From: Deltaproteobacteria bacterium
GTDB lineage: Bacteria > Myxococcota_A > Polyangia > Polyangiales > Houyiibacteriaceae
Length of the DNA stretch: 64,000 nucleotides
Direction: 5' to 3'
Assembly: GCA_019313915.1 (NCBI GenBank)
Contig: JAFDAJ010000001.1
Span: 33,369 to 97,368 of the forward strand
Below are positions 12,745 through 26,014 of this stretch, piece by piece. The position numbers and the translations under genes are program-made. The first letter of the stretch is position 1; each line of letters starts with the position of its first letter. The notes below the pieces were generated by a model. It worked only from the letters and a program-made list of their open reading frames with translations. It made no database searches and was not told the DNA's origin.

Positions 12745-13687
12745 CGAGTTTGCCAAGATCGAGTGGCTGAAGACCCGCTTCGACCTCGACGGCGACTCCA
12801 AGAAGGTCCTCGTCAGCATCGGGGACGACGCGGCGGTGATCGACTTTGGCAACCGGCCGACCATCATCACAGTCGACACTCAGGTGGAAGACGTCCACTT
12901 TCGGCGTGACCTGATCTCCTCCCGTGATTTAGGGTTTCGTGCGATGGTCGCGGCCGCGAGCGACGTTTGGGCGATGGCTGCGATGCCGAGCGCCGCCGTC
13001 GTCGCGCTCACCCTTCCCCCGGACTTCCCGGACGAAGAGTTTCGCGAGTTGATCGAAGGACTTGCCGAGGCCGCGCGCATCACGGGAGCCCGCGTCGTCG
13101 GCGGCAACTTGAGCCAAGGCGCATCGCTGTCGGTGACGACGACTGTTTTTGGCTTACCCATCGCAGAGCCAGTGACCCGACATGGGGCGCAAGCGGGCGA
13201 CTCGGTCTATGTGACCGGGACGCTGGGCTCGGCCGCACTCGGGCTCGCCATCCTGCAAGCCGGTGCGCCCGGTCTCGAGCACGCCGCGAGCTTCGTCGAC
13301 CGTTGGAAACGGCCGCCGACAAATGGTCACGCGGCCAAGGGACTCGCGGACTTCGCGACCGCAGCGGTCGATGTCTCCGATGGCTGTCTGCAAGACCTCC
13401 ACCACGTGTGCGCCGCGTCGGGCGTTGGTGCGACATTGCGCGCCGACGCAATCCCAGCTTCACCCGGTTACCAGTCGATATGCGAAGCGCTCGAACTCGA
13501 CCCGGTGGTGCTCGCGCTCACCGGTGGCGAAGATTACGAGCTGATATTCACTGCACCGGAATCCTCCGAGGCTAGCGCGTTAGGAACGAAGATCGGCGAG
13601 ATCATCGATGGCTCCGGCGTTGAGGTCGTCGACGAAGCTGGTCGGGTGATCGACATCGAGCGAACCGGCTTCCGTCATTTCTCGTAA
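12737..13687 (+). CDS. thiL: Thiamine-monophosphate kinase
   Basis: 316 aa in the AIR-synthase-related fold with GDDAAVI and a C-terminal GGEDYELIFT. It is collinear with E. coli ThiL and overlaps the kinase gene 3' end by 8 nt. Confidence 0.9.
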   Translation: MRDEFAKIEWLKTRFDLDGDSKKVLVSIGDDAAVIDFGNRPTIITVDTQVEDVHFRRDLISSRDLGFRAMVAAASDVWAMAAMPSAAVVALTLPPDFPDEEFRELIEGLAEAARITGARVVGGNLSQGASLSVTTTVFGLPIAEPVTRHGAQAGDSVYVTGTLGSAALGLAILQAGAPGLEHAASFVDRWKRPPTNGHAAKGLADFATAAVDVSDGCLQDLHHVCAASGVGATLRADAIPASPGYQSICEALELDPVVLALTGGEDYELIFTAPESSEASALGTKIGEIIDGSGVEVVDEAGRVIDIERTGFRHFS

Positions 13688-14850
13688 AGCCAAGCTTGAC
13701 GACGCTCATCGTCGAACTTGGCGGCGCCACGTGCTTCTTCTGCGAGCACTTCATCGAGTGATGCGCCCTCTTCAACCGTCATGCGAAACTCGGGACCGCC
13801 CGTGAGCAGGTCGATCGCGGGGCGATCGGACACGAACTCGTACTTCTCGGTTCGCCAACGCTCTTCCGCCGGAAGCGACGGAAGCACGGCCGCGAGCATC
13901 CGGAGATAGGCCTCGTACGGACGAAAGACCCAAGGGTCGGTGACATGGACCTGGACGCCGGAACAACTTCGGCCGGCGTATTTGTGAAACGTTGGTGTGA
14001 ACTCGACGGGCCGTAGCGTGACGCCGTGGAGGTCGAGCTCCAATAGGGGGCCCACATCCAGGCCTGGCGCTCCCCAGAGCTCGAATGGCCTGGTGGTTCC
14101 TCGCCCTTCGGAGAGCTTGGTGCCCTCGACCATACATCCGCCCGGATAGACCAACGCGGTATCGACGGTCGGCATGTTGGGCGACGGCATCACCCAGGGA
14201 AGGCCGGTGTCGTTCCATTGCATCGAACGGGTCCAACCGGTCATCGTGACTATCTGTAATGCGTCGCGGTCGATGCGCTCGCGGTCGCAGACCCACTGCA
14301 TGAGCTCCGCAATGGTCAGCCCATGCCTCACGGCCACCGGGTACAATCCTACGAACGAGAGATAGCCTTCGCGCTGTGGCGCACCCTCCACGCGCGCGCC
14401 GCCGATGGGATTGGGACGATCGAGCAGAACGACGTCGGTCCCGACCGCCGCCGCGACTTTCATCGTGAGCGCAGCGGTCCACACATACGTGTAGTAGCGC
14501 GACCCCACGTCCTGCAGATCGATGACAATCGCATCCAAGCCTCTCAGCCACCCCGGCTTCGGGCTCAAGTCTTCAGCGTCATCTCCGTAGAGCGAATAGA
14601 CGGGAACGTCGGTTTCGTCGGTGTTCCCGACGCGGACCATGTCTTGCGCGGCCCCCGCAAACCCGTGCTCGGGTCCGAACAACGCGGCGACATGAGCCCC
14701 TGCGCCCTGCAGGACCGAAGCCGCTGAGCGGAGCGAGCGATCGACGCTAGCCGCGTGCGCCAGCAATCCCACCTTTCGTCCCGCAACCAGGCGCACGGCG
14801 TCCGAATCACCATCGGCGATGCGGTCGAGGCCTGTTCGAACGCCTGTCAA
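13675..14850 (-). CDS. DUF1343 family protein (NamZ-like exo-beta-N-acetylmuramidase family)
   Basis: 391 aa. The N-terminus GLDRI...[11 protein letters not shown]...LFGPEHGF and its length are typical of DUF1343/YbbC (NamZ). The 3' end overlaps the convergent thiL by 13 nt. Confidence 0.8.
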
Positions 14851-15800
14851 TCGGCCTCACCCACCGCAGGCGCCTCGGTGGTTTCGCCAGCGAGAAGATA
14901 GAGGAGCGCCATGCGCACGGCGACGCCGGCTTCGACCTGTTCGAGGATCACGCTGCGTTCGCCGTCGGCGATGACGTTTTCGATTTCGACGCCGCGGTTC
15001 ATCGGCCCAGGGTGCAGGACGATCGCATCTGGCTTTGCGTACTGAATCGTAGCCGGGCCAATGCCAAACGTGCGCGCGTATTCCCGAGGGCTCGGCAGAA
15101 GCGCGCCCGTGAGACGCTCTCGCTGAATGCGCAGGACCATCACGACATCGGCCCCTTCGAGACCTTCCTCGAGCCGGTCGAACACTCGTACGCCGAGGGA
15201 GTCGACCGCCGCTGGAAGCAGTGTGCGTGGCCCGACGACCCGCACCTCGCATCCAAACAACTTCAGCAGGTGCGCGTTGGACCGCGCAACGCGTGAGTGG
15301 GCGATGTCGCCAACGATGGCGACGACCAAATTGTCGAGTGTTCCCTTTTCCCGCCGAATGGTGAACGCGTCGAGTAGCGCCTGGGTGGGATGCGCATGCA
15401 TCCCATCACCAGCATTGATGACGCTGCACCCGATCTTGGAGGCGACGTAGCTCGGCGCGCCCGAAGCATCGTGTCGAATGACGATCACGTCGGGATGCAT
15501 CGCCTCGAGCGTCCGGCAGGTGTCCTGTAAAGTCTCGCCTTTTTTCACGCTCGATGCGGACACGCTCATGTTGATGACGTCGGCGCTCAGGCGCTTGCCG
15601 GCGAGCTCGAATGAGGTCCGGGTCCGGGTCGATGCCTCGTAGAAGAGGTTGATGACCGTCTTGCCGCGGAGCGTCGGCACCTTGCGCACCGGCCTGCGGG
15701 ACACCTGGAGGAAGGCCTCCGCCGTGTCGAGGATGCGCTCGACGTCGACGCGGGTGAGGCCTTCGATGTCGAGGAGGCTGCGATGGGGAAACGCGTCCAT
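14847..15800 (-). CDS. pyrB: Aspartate carbamoyltransferase catalytic subunit
   Basis: Carries the STRTR motif ([11 protein letters not shown]) and the HPTQ motif ([10 protein letters not shown]). The start is trimmed to [15 protein letters not shown], which abuts the pyrR stop. Confidence 0.93.
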
Positions 15801-16339
15801 CACCCTCCCTCCGTGAGCACCGCCCGATCTGGCCCGGCAGCGTCTATCCAAACGTCGAGGCGTGCACCCGCGTCCATTTCGATGGCACGGCCGACGAAGT
15901 CCGGTGCGATTGGAAGCTCGCGGCCCCCGCGATCACAAAGCGCCGCAAGCCAAATTCGCGCTGGGCGCCCGTGGTCCTGCAGGCACTCGATGGCCGCACG
16001 CACTGTGCGCCCCGTGTGGAGCACATCGTCGACCAGCACGACGTGTCGGCCGTTCACTTCGAACGGGATGTCGCTCGGCCCTATCTTGGGGTTGGGAAGC
16101 GCCGTTGCCGCATCATCGCGATAGAGTGAAATGTCGACCGTCCCCACCGGCGGCGGCCTGCCCTCGACCTTCGCAATCTCGTCTGCGATGCGCATCGATA
16201 GCGCGACCCCGCCGCGACGAATGCCAACCAAAGTCAGGTCTTCGATGCCCGATGTCGCTTCCAGAATCGCAACAGCAATGCGTCGAATGCTCCGTTGGAT
16301 AGCGTCCGCATCGAGTACGACCTTCTGGGTTCGAGCCAC
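15800..16339 (-). CDS. pyrR: Bifunctional pyrimidine operon regulator/uracil phosphoribosyltransferase PyrR
   Basis: Carries the PRPP-binding motif [13 protein letters not shown]. The start is trimmed to the GTG giving (V)[21 protein letters not shown], which aligns with the B. subtilis PyrR N-terminus MNQKAVILDEQAIRRALTRIA. The ORF-track start at 16402 would add 21 unmatched residues. Confidence 0.88.
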
Positions 16340-16379
16340 GTTCGGCGCAGTGTGTGTGAAAACACCGTGCGCTTCAAGC

Positions 16380-17153
16380 CTAGGCGACCGACAGGCCCCC
16401 ATCGATGGTAACCAGGCTTCCCGTTTGCCAAGTTTGATCGAGCACGTTGATGATGACAGCGGCGATTTCCTCAGGCTTTCCGAGCCGGCCCAAGGGATGC
16501 AAAGCTGCCAGCGCCGCGAGCTGGGTCTCGACCCGCTCGTCGAGCTGCGCTGCAGTGAGAGACTCGCCTGGGCGCAGGCGCGGGGTACGCAGCATGTCGG
16601 TATCCACGCCGCCTGGCAGCACCGCGTTCACCCGCACGCCGGCGGAGGCGAGCTCGAGAGCAAGACCTTTGGTGAGCGTATTCAGGGCGGCCTTGGTCGC
16701 TGCGTAGACCACCGTCGTACGTGCAACGCGCTCGGAGAGCGTGCTCGAGACGTTGACGATCGACCCTCCCCGGCCACGAAGATGCTCTGCGACCGCTTGC
16801 GACATCAGAAGCGGCGCGACCAGGTTGACGCGCACCTGAGCCTCGATCGATTCGAGGGTGATGGCCCCAACTGGTTCGTAGCTGGCGATCCCGGCGCAGT
16901 TCACCAATCCGTCGACGGACCCAAACGCGTCGATCGCGCGCTTCGCCGCCTCGGGGACACGAGCCACGTCCTCGAAGTCCACGGACACCGTCCGGACACG
17001 GTCTGCCGCGGACGCTTCGAGCGCCCCTAACGCCTCCTGGTTGCGCGCGATCGCGACGACCTTCCCGCCGCGCGACAGGATCGCCTCGACCGTCGCGCGT
17101 CCAATGCCGCGAGTCGCGCCAGTGACGATAACAGTGCCTTCAGAAACTGTCAT
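16380..17153 (-). CDS. Short-chain dehydrogenase/reductase (classical SDR)
   Basis: Carries TGATRGIGRA (cofactor binding), NAG (NCAG) and the catalytic YAATKAALNTLTK (YxxxK). It starts at MTVSEGT, immediately after the stop of the upstream FolB-cupin gene. Confidence 0.85.
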   Translation of the reverse strand: MTVSEGTVIVTGATRGIGRATVEAILSRGGKVVAIARNQEALGALEASAADRVRTVSVDFEDVARVPEAAKRAIDAFGSVDGLVNCAGIASYEPVGAITLESIEAQVRVNLVAPLLMSQAVAEHLRGRGGSIVNVSSTLSERVARTTVVYAATKAALNTLTKGLALELASAGVRVNAVLPGGVDTDMLRTPRLRPGESLTAAQLDERVETQLAALAALHPLGRLGKPEEIAAVIINVLDQTWQTGSLVTIDGGLSVA

Positions 17154-17154
17154 C

Positions 17155-17901
17155 TCAACCCAAGCCCGCAATCGGACCCCAGGGTGGCTCGGCCGGAACG
17201 TCGGCCGGTTCCCCGCTCACCTCAATCTCGTCCTCAGGAATGAAGCGGGGCAAGTCGACGCAGAGGATGCTCTGGTGCCGGTCGGTCGGATTCGTGTAGG
17301 TGTGCGCGGCGCCCCTCGGCCATCGGTGCACCGTCCCGGGCGCGCACGGCTGCCCCTGACACAGCAGCCCGTCGCCCAACACCATCTCGGACTCTCGCAT
17401 CTGCTGATGCACGTGAAGCGGGATGCTCTTGCCGGAAGCGACGTTCAGACGGTAGATGCCGGCGCCCTTGGTCTCGTAGATCACGTCGACGGTACCGAAG
17501 GGCTTGGTTTCGACCTCGACGTTGCACCATGCGGCAGTGCGCTCGATCTCGAGCGAGGGTACCGCGAAGCCACGCAGAGCGCCGGGCTTGGTGAGACGGA
17601 CGACTGCGGAGTCGACCTGAGCGCGGCGCTCGTCGGGCGCGGGAGGTGCGAGGAGATACCGAGCGAGCACGTGCCCAGCGGTTTCGAGCAGACGGAAGCG
17701 GCAGCTGCGCAAGAGGAACACCATCTGCGACGCAGTCGCGGCGTAGTCGATCGTGGAGCGCAGACTCTCCTTGACCGCCGACGTTTCGGTTTGCAGACGC
17801 ATCTCGACGTCGACGCGGAGCGGCTGCGAGGCGTTGCGCTCGTGCGGGTACACCCCGACGACGCAGTCGACCGTCAGCTCCTCGATGCGCAGGACATCCA
17901 T
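17155..17901 (-). CDS. Dihydroneopterin aldolase (FolB/FolX)-like domain fused to a C-terminal cupin domain
   Basis: The N-terminal half is collinear with E. coli FolB: GVYPHER vs GVYDWEQ, DYAATA vs SYADIA, LLETAG vs LVERVA, and RLTKPGA vs KLSKPGA. The C-terminal half has cupin motif 1 (near match, GKSIPLHVHQQMRESE) and a perfect cupin motif 2 G(X)5PXG(X)2H(X)3N (GTVHRWPRGAAHTYTN). The start is uncertain, either M at 17901 or M at 17952. Confidence 0.75.
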   Translation of the reverse strand: MDVLRIEELTVDCVVGVYPHERNASQPLRVDVEMRLQTETSAVKESLRSTIDYAATASQMVFLLRSCRFRLLETAGHVLARYLLAPPAPDERRAQVDSAVVRLTKPGALRGFAVPSLEIERTAAWCNVEVETKPFGTVDVIYETKGAGIYRLNVASGKSIPLHVHQQMRESEMVLGDGLLCQGQPCAPGTVHRWPRGAAHTYTNPTDRHQSILCVDLPRFIPEDEIEVSGEPADVPAEPPWGPIAGLG

Positions 17902-17950: not shown

Positions 17951-19228
17951 ATGAGCGAGGCCAACTCCGATCCCATGAACGACATCGCGGAGCTCGCTGC
18001 CTTTCGACCCGTCCCGCGCACAGGAGTGATCTACGTCACGGTCGAGGCCCAGAAGCGTGGTTTTAGCCTCGATGCGCCGGGGTGGTGCAACCTCGGACAA
18101 GGCCAACCTGACACCGGCGAGCTTCCCGGCTCCCCCAATCGCGTGACCAACATCCCAGTGCGCTCGGGCGACCTCGACTACGCGCCGGTTGCGGGTGTGT
18201 GGGAGCTCCGCGAAGCGGTTGCCGGGCTCTACAACACTCTGTTCCGCCGCGGGATGAAGTCACGGTACTCGGCGGAAAACGTTTGCATCGCAGGCGGCGG
18301 CCGCGTCGCGGTGATGCGCGCCTGCGCAGCGATTGCACCCATTCACCTCGGGCACTTTCTGCCCGACTACACCGCCTATGAAGAGCTGCTCGACGTGTTC
18401 CGGCGGTTCTTGCCGATCCCGATCTTGCTCGACCCGAAGCAAGGATACGAGTTCACTCGGGAACAGCTCGAAGAAGAGATTCTCGGACGGGGCCTGAGCG
18501 CGATTCTAGCGAGCAACCCCTGCAACCCGACAGGCAAAGTCGTGCAGGGAGACGCGCTCGCCAGCTGGGTCGAAGCGGCACGGGATTTGAACTGCGCGCT
18601 CCTGCTGGACGAGTTCTATTCGCACTACGTGTGGACCGGAGACCAGTCGATCGTCAGCGCTGCGCAGTACGTCGAAGACATCGACAAGGACCCTGTTGTC
18701 GTGTTCGACGGTCTCACGAAAAATTGGCGCTACCCGGGCTTCCGCGTCAGCTGGATTGTCGGTCCGAAGCGCGTCATCGAGTCCGCCGCGAGCGCAGGCT
18801 CGTTTCTCGATGGCGGCGGGGTCGCACCAATGCAGCGGGCCGCGATCGACCTCGTCCAAGAAGAGCCGACGCTTGCAGAAGCGAAAGCCGTGCACGACGA
18901 GTTCAAAAAGAAGCGGGACTTTCTCGTGAACGGTCTGAAAGACATCGGCGTGAGGTTCGACCTCGAGCCACAGAGCACCTTCTACGCATGGGGAGACCTG
19001 AGCGGCCTGCCGCCTTCGCTTCGCAACAGCGACGACTTTTTTCGGGCTGCTCTCGATCGGCAGGTCATCTGCGTGCCAGGGCACTTCTTCGATGTGAACC
19101 CAGGCAAGCGGCGAACGGGCCGCCCGTCGAGGTTCGTCGAGCACATGCGCTTTTCGTTCGGGCCACCGATGCCAGTCCTCGAAGAGGCCGTCGATCGGCT
19201 CCGCGCCATGGTGGCGGACGCCACGTAG
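17951..19228 (+). CDS. Pyridoxal-phosphate-dependent aminotransferase (class I/II fold)
   Basis: 425 aa from MSEANSDPMNDIAELAAF. Collinear class I aminotransferase features include SNPCNPTG and a conserved Lys region (DGLTKNWRYPGFR). The first 66 codons of the ORF-track model overlap the divergent gene and were removed. Confidence 0.85.
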   Translation: MSEANSDPMNDIAELAAFRPVPRTGVIYVTVEAQKRGFSLDAPGWCNLGQGQPDTGELPGSPNRVTNIPVRSGDLDYAPVAGVWELREAVAGLYNTLFRRGMKSRYSAENVCIAGGGRVAVMRACAAIAPIHLGHFLPDYTAYEELLDVFRRFLPIPILLDPKQGYEFTREQLEEEILGRGLSAILASNPCNPTGKVVQGDALASWVEAARDLNCALLLDEFYSHYVWTGDQSIVSAAQYVEDIDKDPVVVFDGLTKNWRYPGFRVSWIVGPKRVIESAASAGSFLDGGGVAPMQRAAIDLVQEEPTLAEAKAVHDEFKKKRDFLVNGLKDIGVRFDLEPQSTFYAWGDLSGLPPSLRNSDDFFRAALDRQVICVPGHFFDVNPGKRRTGRPSRFVEHMRFSFGPPMPVLEEAVDRLRAMVADAT

Positions 19229-19306: not shown

Positions 19307-20188
19307 GTGATCATGCTACATATGACGACATCTGCAGCGGTCGCGGCGAGGATAGAGCAACAGCCACGGGAGGCAGCCCCCTTCGTGAAGTGGGTCGGGG
19401 GCAAGGGCCGATTGCTGAGCCAGCTGCGACCGCTGCTCCCTTCGGGGGTAGAGCACATGCGCCACGTCGAGCCATTCGTCGGCGGTGGCGCGCTCTTTTT
19501 TTCGCGCCGCCCTGGGCGAGCGCTGCTGACCGACATCAACCGGACCCTCGTGGCGACGTACTCAGTGGTCCGCGATGACGTCGAAGACGTGATCATGGCG
19601 TTGCGCCGACTCGCCGGCCGCCACTCCAAGGAGAGCTACTACCAGGTGCGCGAACGGTACAACCAGAGCGGTCGCGTTTCAACCTCGAAGCGGGCGGCGA
19701 TGTTCATCTACCTCAACAAGACCTGTTTCAACGGATTGCACCGTGTGAATCGCAAAGGCGAGTTCAACGTGCCGGTCGGCTCGTACAAGAGACCGCGAAT
19801 CTTGAACGAAGAGGGTCTGCGCGCGGCCAGCCGCGCGCTCAGAGATGCCGAACTCGAGTGCGCTCCGTTCGATGCGCTGCTCGAAAACGCAAAGCCCGGC
19901 GACTTCGTCTACTTCGACCCGCCCTACGAGCCCGTCTCGCAAACCGCGAGCTTCACATCCTACGCGCGCGACGGCTTCTCCCGAGAAGACCAAACGCGCT
20001 TGCGCGACGTGTACAAAGCCCTCGACCGTCGAGGCTGCAAGGTCATGCTCTCCAACAGCGACGTCCCCTTCATCCACAGCCTCTATGGCAAGTTCAACAT
20101 CGACATCGTAGCCGCCCCCCGGGCCATCAACTGCGACGCCAAGAAGCGCGGAAAAGTGAGCGAGCTCGTAGTCCGCAACTATGCGTAA
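19307..20188 (+). CDS. Dam-family (alpha-class, D12) N6-adenine DNA methyltransferase, no cognate nuclease adjacent
   Basis: 293 aa with FVKWVGGKGRLL, motif I VEPFVGGGALFF and motif IV FDPPY, in the Dam motif order. Its GC3-rich codon usage resembles that of its neighbours. The start could be GTG at 19307, ATG at 19313 or ATG at 19322. Confidence 0.88.
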   Translation: MIMLHMTTSAAVAARIEQQPREAAPFVKWVGGKGRLLSQLRPLLPSGVEHMRHVEPFVGGGALFFSRRPGRALLTDINRTLVATYSVVRDDVEDVIMALRRLAGRHSKESYYQVRERYNQSGRVSTSKRAAMFIYLNKTCFNGLHRVNRKGEFNVPVGSYKRPRILNEEGLRAASRALRDAELECAPFDALLENAKPGDFVYFDPPYEPVSQTASFTSYARDGFSREDQTRLRDVYKALDRRGCKVMLSNSDVPFIHSLYGKFNIDIVAAPRAINCDAKKRGKVSELVVRNYA

Positions 20189-20257
20189 GAGGAGTCAGAC
20201 CTCTTTTTGGGCGTGGGCCCCCTTGCCAAGAACCGCAAACCGCGAGACGGTGCGCCG

Positions 20258-21259
20258 ATGCAGCCCCACACCCCGCCCCTACTGCTGTGCCTCTGCTATC
20301 TTGCTGCCTGCAGCCAACAAGCTGAGGTGGCGAAAATCACGCCCACCATGTCGCATTCGTTCGAGTCCCTCACAATTGACGCGGGAGCGGAGATCAGCGA
20401 CCTCTGCCAGAGTTGGACGTTAGACAACGACGAACCGCTGTACGTAGCCAAGATACGACAGCGCAACGACGGCGCGTGGCATCACTCGAATTGGTTCTTC
20501 GTCCCTGAGAGCGAGTATCCAGGCCCCGACGGCACTTGGGACTGCGACGAGCGGGGCTTCCATGACGTTGCGGCGGCGTTGGCCGGAGGCGCCTTCTTCG
20601 CGCAGTCCACCCAAACCTTCCAAGAGCTTCAAGCCTTCCAGGAAGGCGCCGTCCTCGAAATTCCGCCGCGGCACAAAATCGTGGGCGGCGTGCACCTCGT
20701 AAACGTGTCGGCGGGCGCTCTCGATACCGCGCTCAGCTTCGACATCGAGACGGTCCCCGAGGAAAGCGTTCGAGTGCGACTCCGTCCCATCGCATTCACC
20801 AACACCGCACTCGACATCGAGCCACAGGCGGAGTCGCGATTCGGAATGACGTGCGACATCGGAATCCCCTCCGATTACAATATCTACTACGTTCTGGCGC
20901 ACTACCACGAGTGGGGAAATTATTTCCGGCTCAGCTTCGTCGACGAGGATGGAGGCGATCGAACGATCTTCGAACTGAGCAACTCGATCGGAGAACCGCT
21001 CGGCATCACGCTCGATCCGCCGATCAACTCACGAAACGCGTCGAAGCTACGTGTTGAATGCGGCTACATCAACGACACCGACCAGCCTCTAACTTATGGG
21101 CTGGCTGGCCATGAAATGTGCGTGTTCCTCGCCTACAGCGACGCCGACTACAAGATCGGCGCGTCCTCGGGAGACAACACCGCGATGGGCCCAAACGAAG
21201 ATGGCATATACATGAACGAAACCGCCTGCGGCGGTGTGCTCGCGGTCCCGGCCCCGTAG
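20258..21259 (+). CDS. Lipoprotein resembling copper type II ascorbate-dependent monooxygenases (PHM/DBH family)
   Basis: Carries a lipobox signal peptide, MQPHTPPLLLCLCYLAAC|S. The ligand pattern is HH (WHHSNWF), H (GGVHLVN), HxH (AHYHEWG) and M (GHEMCVF) at roughly 70-residue intervals. TWDCDERG matches PHM YWFCDEG. Confidence 0.7.
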   Translation: MQPHTPPLLLCLCYLAACSQQAEVAKITPTMSHSFESLTIDAGAEISDLCQSWTLDNDEPLYVAKIRQRNDGAWHHSNWFFVPESEYPGPDGTWDCDERGFHDVAAALAGGAFFAQSTQTFQELQAFQEGAVLEIPPRHKIVGGVHLVNVSAGALDTALSFDIETVPEESVRVRLRPIAFTNTALDIEPQAESRFGMTCDIGIPSDYNIYYVLAHYHEWGNYFRLSFVDEDGGDRTIFELSNSIGEPLGITLDPPINSRNASKLRVECGYINDTDQPLTYGLAGHEMCVFLAYSDADYKIGASSGDNTAMGPNEDGIYMNETACGGVLAVPAP

Positions 21260-24197: not shown

Positions 24198-25097
24198 ATG
24201 GCACGGGCTCAACGACGCCACACGGAGGCGGGGAAGCGCGCCGACCAGCGTTCCACGCGCGTGCTCTGGGGCGGGCTGCTCGCTGGCGGTCTCATCGCGG
24301 TTGGCATCGCGCTCGCGCCGGGCTTCCGCGAGCCCGCCGAAGAAACCGTCGCCCCGGTAGACATCACGCCAAGGGAACCCGCTCTCCCCGCGGCGGCCCC
24401 AGAGGTCGAGGCGCTTCGCGTGCGCGTCGTTCGTAAGTACCCGCACGCGGCGGACGCCTTTACGCAAGGGCTCATCTGGCACGAGGACGCGATGTACGAG
24501 AGCACCGGCCAATACGGGCGTTCTTCGCTCCGCAAGGTCCGGCTCGAGGACGGCAAAGTGCTCGCGGAGCGCAAATTGGAGTCGCGATTCTTTGGCGAGG
24601 GCCTGGCACGTGTCGACGATCGCTTGATTCAACTCACCTGGCGCGCGGGCCTCGCGTTCGTGTCGGACCTGACGACCCTCGAGGAGCACAAAGCTCTCAG
24701 CTACAGCGGCGAGGGTTGGGGCCTGTGTTACGACGGGACGGCGCTAGTGATGAGCGATGGCTCCTCGATGTTGGAGCTCCGCGACCCGGAGTCGATGGCG
24801 CTACTCGGCGAGGTAACTGTATTGAAGAACGGACATCCCGTGCGGAAGCTCAACGAGCTCGAGTGCACAGGCTCGGAGGTCTACGCCAACATCTGGCAAA
24901 GCAACGAAATCCTGCGCATTGACCGCAAGAGCGGGCGCGTCACTGCGACGATCGATGCAAGCGGTTTACTGTCGCGCAGCGAAGCAAGGCGCGCCGACGT
25001 TCTCAACGGGATCGCTTACAAGCCGGAGTCGAAGACGTTCTTGCTCACGGGCAAGCTCTGGCCTCATGTGTTCGAAGTCGAGCTCGTGCCCCGCTGA
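24198..25097 (+). CDS. Glutaminyl-peptide cyclotransferase (plant/bacterial beta-propeller type)
   Basis: Carries YPHAADAFTQGLIWHEDAMYESTGQYGRSSLRKV...FGEGLARVDDRLIQLTWR...NELE...IYANIW, typical of the Glu_cyclase_2 family. The start is trimmed to MARAQRR, ahead of a signal-anchor helix. Confidence 0.8.
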   Translation: MARAQRRHTEAGKRADQRSTRVLWGGLLAGGLIAVGIALAPGFREPAEETVAPVDITPREPALPAAAPEVEALRVRVVRKYPHAADAFTQGLIWHEDAMYESTGQYGRSSLRKVRLEDGKVLAERKLESRFFGEGLARVDDRLIQLTWRAGLAFVSDLTTLEEHKALSYSGEGWGLCYDGTALVMSDGSSMLELRDPESMALLGEVTVLKNGHPVRKLNELECTGSEVYANIWQSNEILRIDRKSGRVTATIDASGLLSRSEARRADVLNGIAYKPESKTFLLTGKLWPHVFEVELVPR

Positions 25098-26014
25098 TCT
25101 CGGGCATGCACCTCGATCACGGGATCCCACTTCGCGAGCCTCGTACGCATGATCGCGATCGCGTCTGGACTCTCGTCGATGAGGACGAAGCCTCGGCCAA
25201 GACGCGCGGCCGCCTCACCGGTCGTTCCGCTCCCGGCAAAGAAGTCGAGTACCGTGTCCCCGGGCTCCGTGTGCACCTTGATGATGCGCTCGAGCACGCC
25301 CAACGGCTTCTGCGTGGGATACCCGGTCTTCTCCTTGCCATTCGTCGGCACGATGGTGTGCCACCACACGTCGGTTGGCGTCTTGCCGCGGGCGGCTTTC
25401 TCTTTCCCCACGAGCCCCGGCGCCATGTACGGAATGCGATCCATCTCATCGAACTGAAACACGTAGCGCTTTGGGTCCAGGACGTACCAAAGCAGGGTGT
25501 CGTGCTTGGCCGGCCACCATCGCTTCGGACGCCCACCGAAATCATACGCCCAAATAATCTCGTTTCGAAAATGATCCCTGCCCAAGAGTCGGTCCAGCGC
25601 GACTTTCACGTAATGCACTTCTCGATAGTCGAGATGCACGAACAGTGACCCATCGGGGGTCAGGCACGGCAGCGCGGCTTCGATGCGGCTCATCAGGAAT
25701 GGAATGTACGAATCGAATTCGTCTTCGTAGGTCGGGCTGTCGATCGGCTCGACATCGTAGCGCCGGCCGCCAAAGCCCCGTCGCTCACCCTCCTCGGCCA
25801 CCCGCACCTGCATCCTCTGGCGGGACTGCTTGCGTCCCGTGTTGAACGGCGGATCGATGTAAATCAGCCGCGCAAGCTCGCGCGGGAGCGTCTCGAGGAC
25901 CTCCAAGTTGTCACCCTGCACGATTCGGTTCACACGGCCGAGCCTATCATCCGCAGGTGAGTGCGCCCATCCTCGAACCCGCTTGCAGCGCCGCAGGGGT
26001 CGCTCTACGCTCAC
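25064..26014 (-). CDS. Beta-class N6-adenine DNA methyltransferase (N4/N6 MTase family), no cognate nuclease adjacent
   Basis: Motif IV IDPPFN comes before motif [15 protein letters not shown], which is the beta-class order. [12 protein letters not shown] is also present. The natural start may be the GTG giving [13 protein letters not shown] at 25933. The 3' end overlaps the convergent cyclase gene by 34 nt. Confidence 0.85.

What the first reader, a model, noticed from the sequence alone, without database searches (positions are those of the whole stretch)
16380..17901. FolB/FolX-like domain fused to a metal-binding cupin and followed directly by an SDR, a possible pterin side branch
The N-terminal domain keeps the residues that align with the DHNA catalytic positions: Glu in GVYPHER, Tyr in DYAATA, Glu in LLETAG and Lys in RLTKPGA.

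The C-terminal domain is a cupin with a perfect motif 2 (GTVHRWPRGAAHTYTN) and a near-perfect motif 1. I do not know of a characterised FolB-cupin fusion.

A classical SDR starts 1 nt after its stop. In E. coli and Pseudomonas, a FolB paralogue (FolX) together with an SDR (FolM) makes tetrahydromonapterin. By analogy, this pair could make or modify a non-folate pterin, with the cupin adding an isomerase or dioxygenase step.
Basis: partly seen in the sequence, partly recalled or inferred. Interest (0 to 1): 0.55.

Follow-up and report, generated by a model that had tools for sequence, protein, structure and literature searches.

The report
Folate enzyme carrying a pterin-branch cupin
This bacterium's ordinary folate-making enzyme carries an extra, unstudied metal-binding enzyme which, with the reductase next door, probably makes a second pterin cofactor, possibly tetrahydrobiopterin by a route that bypasses the textbook synthase.

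Summary
Observation confirmed: a 248-aa FolB-cupin fusion (17901-17155, minus strand) is followed after 1 nt by an SDR; 725 homologues rule out a frameshift. The FolX+FolM analogy fails. The N-domain is the genome's only FolB and keeps all four aldolase residues, so it is most likely the housekeeping enzyme; the SDR lacks the pteridine-reductase Arg.

The side-branch idea holds. The cupin (3His-1Glu site, invariant Cys) is an uncharacterised family in Myxococcota, Oligoflexia and a protist. It persists where the FolB half is dead, and sits beside folK, folE, folM-like genes or a Nudix domain. An SDR is adjacent in 21 of 24 divergent loci with an intact cupin and 0 of 16 without. Close relatives of the window SDR lie in phhA-PTPS-II-SDR operons, and PTPS-II never co-occurred with the cupin, though not significantly at family level.

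Best guess (about 0.35): the cupin is a non-homologous pyruvoyl-tetrahydropterin synthase and the SDR a sepiapterin-reductase analogue. No activity is shown and no consumer was found in this genome. First readers noted the same fusion in four other genomes.

The parts
17155..17901 (-). FolB-cupin fusion gene, 248 aa
17539..17901 (-). Dihydroneopterin aldolase (T-fold) domain, residues 1-121, with E21, Y53, E73, K105; the only FolB of the genome
17218..17526 (-). Cupin domain, about residues 126-228. Predicted metal ligands H163, H165, E170, H200; C214 and P218 invariant; E172, D216, D224, E225, Y150, W194 nearly invariant in 134 diverse members
16380..17153 (-). Classical SDR, 257 aa: TGxxxGxG, R37 (NADP(H) preference inferred), S137-Y150-K154, S-T-L subfamily signature; not a FolM/PTR1 type
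15800..16363 (-). pyrR (start approximate), followed by pyrB and namZ; syntenic mostly in close relatives, not part of the module
17951..19228 (+). Divergent class I/II PLP aminotransferase; common neighbour in Polyangiales only, not detected in the distant loci, not counted as part of the module

Best explanation
A bifunctional branch-point protein. (1) The N-domain is the cell's normal dihydroneopterin aldolase for folate synthesis (strongly inferred, about 0.85-0.9). (2) The cupin is a separate metalloenzyme that stays attached to the T-fold and diverts a dihydroneopterin species into a non-folate pterin together with the SDR (inferred from context, about 0.7). (3) Most likely chemistry (inferred, not shown): the metal binds the side-chain hydroxyls of dihydroneopterin tri- or monophosphate, a Cys or Glu base drives ketol-type isomerisation and loss of the 3' group to give 6-pyruvoyl-tetrahydropterin, and the NADPH SDR reduces the keto groups to a tetrahydrobiopterin-type cofactor. 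The cupin would stand in for PTPS-II and the SDR for sepiapterin reductase. The confidence given is for all three steps together.
For: Sole FolB, catalytic residues intact, rest of the folate pathway present (roles from PMC4176595). The halves are lost independently: live/live, dead FolB/live cupin and live FolB/dead cupin all occur. In 5 of 5 Oligoflexia with a dead FolB half, a separate folB exists. SDR adjacent in 21 of 24 divergent loci with an intact cupin, 0 of 16 with a degenerate or absent cupin. The window-type SDR was found only beside the cupin gene (17 genomes) and in none of 35 cupin-negative genomes. Pterin context: folM-like gene directly upstream in 13 loci; head-to-head with folK; Nudix-SDR-cupin-folE; fusion to a YtkD/RppH-type Nudix in about 20 proteins. 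Displacement clue: in 8 Oligoflexia an SDR with the same S-T-L signature follows a PTPS-II (CxxxxxHGH; motif from PMC5041015); 7 have a phhA-like gene upstream and 4 lie tail-to-tail with a folB that has lost its cupin. These SDRs group with the window SDR clade (SH-aLRT 90; FastTree 0.92). PTPS-II and the cupin never shared a genome: 40 vs 44 of 301 Myxococcota, 20 vs 8 of 101 Oligoflexia. PTPS uses a His-bound metal and a catalytic Cys (PMC2229834); the cupin has three His, a Glu and an invariant Cys, and its best structural match is a sugar-phosphate isomerase.
Against: No activity data. No known consumer in this genome: PhhA and NOS not found, AGMO C-domain not found but without a positive control. 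PhhA does not track the cupin in Myxococcota and is near-universal in Oligoflexia, most of which have neither cupin nor PTPS-II. The mutual exclusion is not significant once kinship is counted (family level p=0.27; Oligoflexia p=0.16). The SDR partner is not one orthologous group: those beside Oligoflexia cupins fall elsewhere in the tree, and the clade joining window-type and PTPS-II-linked SDRs also holds three SDRs with no pterin neighbour detected. The SDR profile was built from cupin-adjacent genes, which inflates their scores. Some intact cupins have no SDR nearby. A Nudix fusion would compete with a triphosphate-using enzyme unless the substrate is the monophosphate. The position of C214 relative to the metal could not be measured (no coordinates).
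Confidence: 0.35

Rival explanations
1. The cupin and SDR modify or salvage a pterin side chain by other chemistry (ketol isomerisation or epimerisation through a keto intermediate, dehydration, or repair of oxidised dihydropterins), giving a non-biopterin pterin such as a monapterin or threo isomer.
For: All the pterin-context evidence applies equally. Isomerase, dehydratase and lyase cupins score alike structurally (Z 12-14.6). The window SDR clade is sister to FolM-like reductases (0.935). No BH4-dependent hydroxylase in this genome.
Against: Does not explain why close relatives of the SDR sit in phhA-PTPS-II operons beside a cupin-less folB.
Confidence: 0.3
2. The cupin and SDR dispose of glycolaldehyde, the by-product of the aldolase.
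For: Direct fusion to the enzyme that releases it; the SDR is a generic carbonyl-reductase type with no close solved relative.
Against: The cupin stays intact where the fused FolB has lost all catalytic residues, and decays where FolB is alive. Nudix, folM and folE links are unexplained.
Confidence: 0.08
3. FolX/FolM analogue: the N-domain is an epimerase and the SDR a dihydromonapterin reductase making tetrahydromonapterin.
For: DHNA has a side epimerase activity (PMC4176595). In other lineages a FolM-like gene precedes the fusion, so monapterin may be made there.
Against: Only FolB in the genome; FolX model E=5e-6 against 1.5e-13 for folB; the SDR lacks the Arg that marks pteridine reductases (PMC13259868); no FolM-like gene found in this family.
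Confidence: 0.07
4. The cupin is a non-homologous aldolase, or a FolB bypass like PTPS-III, that takes over when the FolB half dies.
For: Dead-FolB versions sit head-to-head with folK. Two draft genomes (G077, G302) have a dead FolB half, folK, and no other folB found.
Against: Six genomes with a dead FolB half keep a separate folB; the cupin is fully conserved beside a live FolB; the SDR link is unexplained.
Confidence: 0.08
5. The cupin has no pterin role; the SDR link is inherited synteny.
For: In close relatives the whole block (dam, aminotransferase, pyrR, pyrB, namZ) is syntenic. A shared fold shows no function.
Against: Other neighbours change while the SDR stays; it disappears with cupin decay; links to folK, folE, folM and Nudix recur in separate lineages.
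Confidence: 0.12

Closest known systems
Dihydroneopterin aldolase FolB (E. coli, PDB 2o90; S. aureus, 1dhn)
   Same: T-fold, E21/Y53/E73/K98-equivalent residues, about 30% identity to the Y. pestis and E. coli enzymes, sole copy in a complete folate pathway.
   Different: Carries a C-terminal cupin and a short insertion before K105. FolB fusions seen in the searches are to FolK (PDB 2cg8) or Nudix (Atlas cluster); no paper on a cupin fusion was found.
FolX + FolM tetrahydromonapterin branch (E. coli, Pseudomonas)
   Same: A T-fold gene next to an SDR; true FolM-like genes precede the fusion in other lineages.
   Different: Here the T-fold is not a paralogue and the SDR is not a pteridine reductase.
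PTPS-II + sepiapterin reductase tetrahydrobiopterin pathway
   Same: Works-like claim only: His-bound metal plus conserved Cys, followed by an NADPH SDR; close relatives of the SDR sit in phhA-PTPS-II operons.
   Different: The cupin is unrelated to PTPS in fold. The SDR did not list a sepiapterin-reductase family among its top matches. No BH4 consumer was found in this genome.
Cupin sugar-phosphate isomerases (T. kodakarensis phosphomannose isomerase, 7zvy; PF01050)
   Same: Best structural match, Z 14.6; nearest named Atlas clusters at 0.88-0.90; 3His-1Glu motif.
   Different: 13% identity; own conserved Cys-x-Asp-x-Pro-x-Phe and Asp-Glu motifs; almost always attached to a live or dead FolB domain; no sugar genes recur nearby.

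Membership tests
FolB / dihydroneopterin aldolase | Pfam PF02152 and TIGR00526 above cut-off; T-fold | tested here: met
   70.8 vs 31.8 bits and 53.1 vs 45.05 bits; Z 16.4 to 1dhn
FolB / dihydroneopterin aldolase | Catalytic and binding residues Glu21, Tyr53, Glu73, Lys98 | tested here: met
   E21, Y53, E73, K105 aligned and invariant
FolB / dihydroneopterin aldolase | Equivalog model TIGR00525 above cut-off | tested here: not met
   51.2 vs 72.15 bits; a divergent member, so the assignment rests on residues and on being the sole copy
FolB / dihydroneopterin aldolase | Aldolase activity on 7,8-dihydroneopterin | not testable with these tools
   needs an assay or complementation
FolX (dihydroneopterin triphosphate epimerase) | Paralogue beside a canonical folB; PRK11245 model above cut-off | tested here: not met
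   Only FolB-fold gene found in the genome; 26.5 vs 152 bits
FolM/PTR1/PruA pteridine reductases (window SDR) | N-terminal TGxxxRxG with Arg (PMC13259868); Asp rather than Ser before the catalytic Tyr (own knowledge) | tested here: not met
   TGATRGIG and Ser137; PRK09135 129.5 vs 288 bits
Classical SDR | TGxxxGxG and Ser-Tyr-Lys triad | tested here: met
   G12, G16, G18, S137, Y150, K154 invariant in 31 relatives; Pfam adh_short E=9.5e-50
Metal-binding cupin | Double-stranded beta-helix with HxH-x4-E and a distal His | tested here: met
   Fold; H163, H165, E170, H200 invariant in 134 members. Pfam Cupin_2 is below cut-off; metal binding itself untested
PTPS-II (6-pyruvoyl-tetrahydropterin synthase) | T-fold COG0720 protein with CxxxxxHGH | tested here: not met
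   The domain is a cupin; the genome's only PF01242 gene has the QueD motif CxxxHGH. Only a works-like claim is made
Sepiapterin reductase | Sequence-family membership | tested here: inconclusive
   Not among the best 25 NCBIfam or best 60 PDB matches; no direct comparison run
Sepiapterin reductase | NADPH-dependent reduction of pterin side-chain carbonyls | not testable with these tools
   needs an assay

The most novel reading that the evidence does not exclude
The cupin is a non-homologous replacement for 6-pyruvoyl-tetrahydropterin synthase and its partner SDR a new sepiapterin-reductase family. Together they form an unrecognised route to a tetrahydrobiopterin-type cofactor in myxobacteria, Oligoflexia and some protists, serving an unidentified pterin-dependent enzyme in genomes that lack PhhA and NOS.
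Probability: 0.3. Interest if true: 0.78.

Novelty: new variant of a known kind. Interest (0 to 1): 0.6.

Why it matters
Pterin pathways are mapped almost entirely on T-fold enzymes, and I found no paper that places a cupin in them. This family has a sharply conserved active site, recurs beside folB, folK, folE, folM and Nudix genes in two bacterial phyla, and occurs in a protist, yet is annotated only as dihydroneopterin aldolase or hypothetical protein. If it makes pyruvoyl-tetrahydropterin, it is a new case of convergent chemistry and implies an unknown pterin-dependent reaction in these bacteria. A two-enzyme LC-MS assay can decide it. The phhA-PTPS-II-SDR operons also nominate a candidate new sepiapterin-reductase family, whatever the cupin does.

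Tried and rejected
Frameshift artefact: rejected.

A FolB-cupin-SDR triple fusion (P0142) was discounted: its cupin is cut short and the contig is full of fragmented genes. A second (P0206) rests on one contig.

Searches for a consumer led nowhere: PhhA, NOS, AGMO C-domain (no positive control), pterin-4a-carbinolamine dehydratase (present here but in 67 of 80 genomes regardless of the cupin).

No relative in viral contigs. A homologue search with the Nudix fusion was swamped by Nudix candidates. The fold search of that model was dominated by the Nudix domain, so the dead T-fold rests on profile comparison (96-97%) and its strand-helix order.

The Fisher test used a miscounted table (19/3 instead of 21/3) and treats kin as independent; it is not used. 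The careful IQ-TREE search did not finish; only quick trees are cited. No model coordinates were available to measure the metal site. No complex prediction was run, since no binding is claimed. Literature searches found no paper on this fusion or on myxobacterial biopterin synthesis; the library lacks most subscription papers.

Full report
Observation. The window holds one 248-codon frame at 17901-17155 on the minus strand, and an SDR whose ATG (17153) follows the stop by one base. Residues 5-117 match Pfam FolB above cut-off; residues 153-215 match Cupin_2 only weakly. A confident model (pLDDT 93.7) shows a DHNA T-fold followed by a cupin barrel, with best matches to S. aureus DHNA (Z 16.4) and a cupin phosphomannose isomerase (Z 14.6). 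There are 725 homologues, the named ones from Myxococcota, so the fusion is not a sequencing error. The host is inferred to be a Polyangiales member from the titles of its closest loci.

The N-domain. E21, Y53 and E73 align without gaps to E. coli DHNA and K105 aligns to K98. These are the binding and catalytic residues described in PMC4176595, and all are invariant in 65 homologues. The genome (rated 100% complete) has this one FolB-fold gene, plus folE, folK, folP, folA and a single PTPS-family gene of QueD type. It therefore needs this domain for folate. FolB models score better than the FolX model, though the strict equivalog cut-off is missed. I read it as the housekeeping aldolase, not a FolX-like paralogue (inference, strong).

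The cupin. A cupin-only profile found 359 representative proteins. In 134 of them H163, H165, E170, H200, C214 and P218 are invariant, and E172, D216, D224, E225, Y150 and W194 nearly so. This is the pattern of an active site. The domain occurs in 44 of 301 Myxococcota and 12 of 101 genomes of the class containing Oligoflexales, in a contig that looks alphaproteobacterial from its ATP-synthase gene order, and in the protist Plasmodiophora brassicae. Many members have an N-domain that Pfam does not recognise; profile comparison shows it to be a decayed FolB that keeps the two helices but not the catalytic residues. About 20 members add a C-terminal Nudix domain of the YtkD/RppH type. Three states exist: both halves alive, FolB dead with cupin alive, and FolB alive with cupin dead. 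Where FolB is dead, a separate folB was found in six genomes and not in two drafts. So the halves have separate jobs, and the cupin is neither a general FolB replacement nor a mere servant of the aldolase.

The SDR. It is a classical SDR with a Ser-Tyr-Lys triad and a basic residue suggesting NADP(H). It lacks the Arg that marks pteridine reductases (PMC13259868), so it is not FolM. FolM-like genes do occur, as a separate gene directly upstream of the fusion in 13 loci of other lineages, and were not found in this family. An SDR follows the fusion in 70 of 78 evaluable loci; in close relatives that could be plain synteny, since pyrR, pyrB and dam are kept too. The divergent set is more telling: an SDR is adjacent in 21 of 24 loci with an intact cupin and in none of 16 with a decayed or absent cupin. 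The window-type SDR was found only beside the cupin gene and in none of 35 cupin-negative genomes. These genomes are kin, and the profile was built from adjacent SDRs, so I give no probability.

Pterin context. Dead-FolB cupin genes lie head-to-head with folK in several lineages, and one contig reads Nudix-SDR-cupin-folE. With the FolB, FolM and Nudix links, this places the cupin at the dihydroneopterin branch point (inference, about 0.7).

The displacement clue. In eight Oligoflexia an SDR with the window SDR's S-T-L signature follows a PTPS-II gene (motif CxxxxxHGH, PMC5041015). Seven have a phhA-like gene upstream, and four lie tail-to-tail with a folB that has lost its cupin. Such an operon looks like tetrahydrobiopterin synthesis with the SDR in the sepiapterin-reductase role. 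Quick trees join these SDRs with the window clade (SH-aLRT 90; FastTree 0.92), along with three SDRs of other context, and FastTree places FolM-like reductases as sister. PTPS-II and the cupin were never found in the same genome, but this is weak: p=0.27 at family level in Myxococcota and 0.16 in Oligoflexia. PTPS works with a His-bound zinc and a catalytic Cys (PMC2229834); the cupin offers a similar set on another fold.

How it most likely works. Shown: sequence, fold, residue conservation, gene content and linkage. Inferred: the N-domain makes 6-hydroxymethyl-dihydropterin for folate; the cupin isomerises the side chain of dihydroneopterin tri- or monophosphate and eliminates the 3' group to give 6-pyruvoyl-tetrahydropterin; the SDR reduces it to a biopterin-type tetrahydropterin. 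I put this full chain at about 0.35, and another pterin side-chain reaction at about 0.3. The main weaknesses are the lack of any assay, the lack of a consumer in this genome (no PhhA or NOS), PhhA not tracking the cupin, and SDR partners of more than one clade.

Comparison and verdict. The N-domain is filed as a divergent FolB. Membership of FolX, FolM and PTPS-II was tested and not met; the PTPS link is a works-like claim only. I found no paper on this fusion. Four first-stage notes describe the same fusion in other genomes; they repeat the observation and are not independent support for function. Verdict: a real, uncharacterised pterin-linked cupin family on a housekeeping enzyme; new variant of a known kind; interest 0.6.

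Noticed in passing
P0191 (Plasmodiophora brassicae CEO96139.1) and about 20 similar proteins such as P0229, P0167, P0139: Dead-FolB, intact cupin and YtkD/RppH-type Nudix in one protein; several look eukaryotic. A candidate dihydroneopterin-triphosphate pyrophosphatase fusion.
   Followed up: partly
L293, L295-L298, L300, L302, L304 (Oligoflexia): Operon of a long (about 580-650 aa) phhA-like gene, PTPS-II and an SDR outside the known sepiapterin-reductase matches; a candidate new sepiapterin-reductase family.
   Followed up: partly
L309-L337 (several Myxococcota families): Tandem pair of PTPS paralogues before folE: one with CxxxxxHGH, the other mostly lacking the Cys. Possibly a heteromeric PTPS.
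   Followed up: no
Myxococcota families f18 (0/22), f25 (0/13), f26 (0/4): No FolB found in whole families; they may use a bypass or lack folate synthesis.
   Followed up: no
G077 (L165, L269) and G302 (L196, L270): Dead FolB half, intact cupin, folM-like gene and folK, but no other folB found; how they make folate is unexplained (draft genomes).
   Followed up: partly
L197:1040-3960: Vut_1 (queuosine precursor transporter family) directly before a folM-like gene and a dead-FolB-cupin-SDR fusion; single contig.
   Followed up: no
L198/L199: Amidohydrolase and creatininase-family genes run into the Nudix-fused version; possibly pterin deamination or salvage.
   Followed up: no
many Oligoflexia genomes: A 300-340 aa protein with two weak PTPS-like halves is widespread.
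   Followed up: no
window 20207-21259 (+): 350-aa protein with a lipoprotein-like start and many His, no Pfam match; present in only a few related loci.
   Followed up: no
window 19307-20188 (+) and 25064-26014 (-): A D12-class adenine methyltransferase conserved near this locus in Polyangiales, and a second putative DNA methyltransferase (from its motifs, not searched).
   Followed up: no
window 13675-16363 (-): pyrR, pyrB and namZ follow the SDR with little or no spacing, so they may share a transcript with the fusion in this genus.
   Followed up: partly
G000:C6:6442-6711: Pterin-4a-carbinolamine dehydratase in a genome with no PhhA or NOS; common across the phylum.
   Followed up: partly
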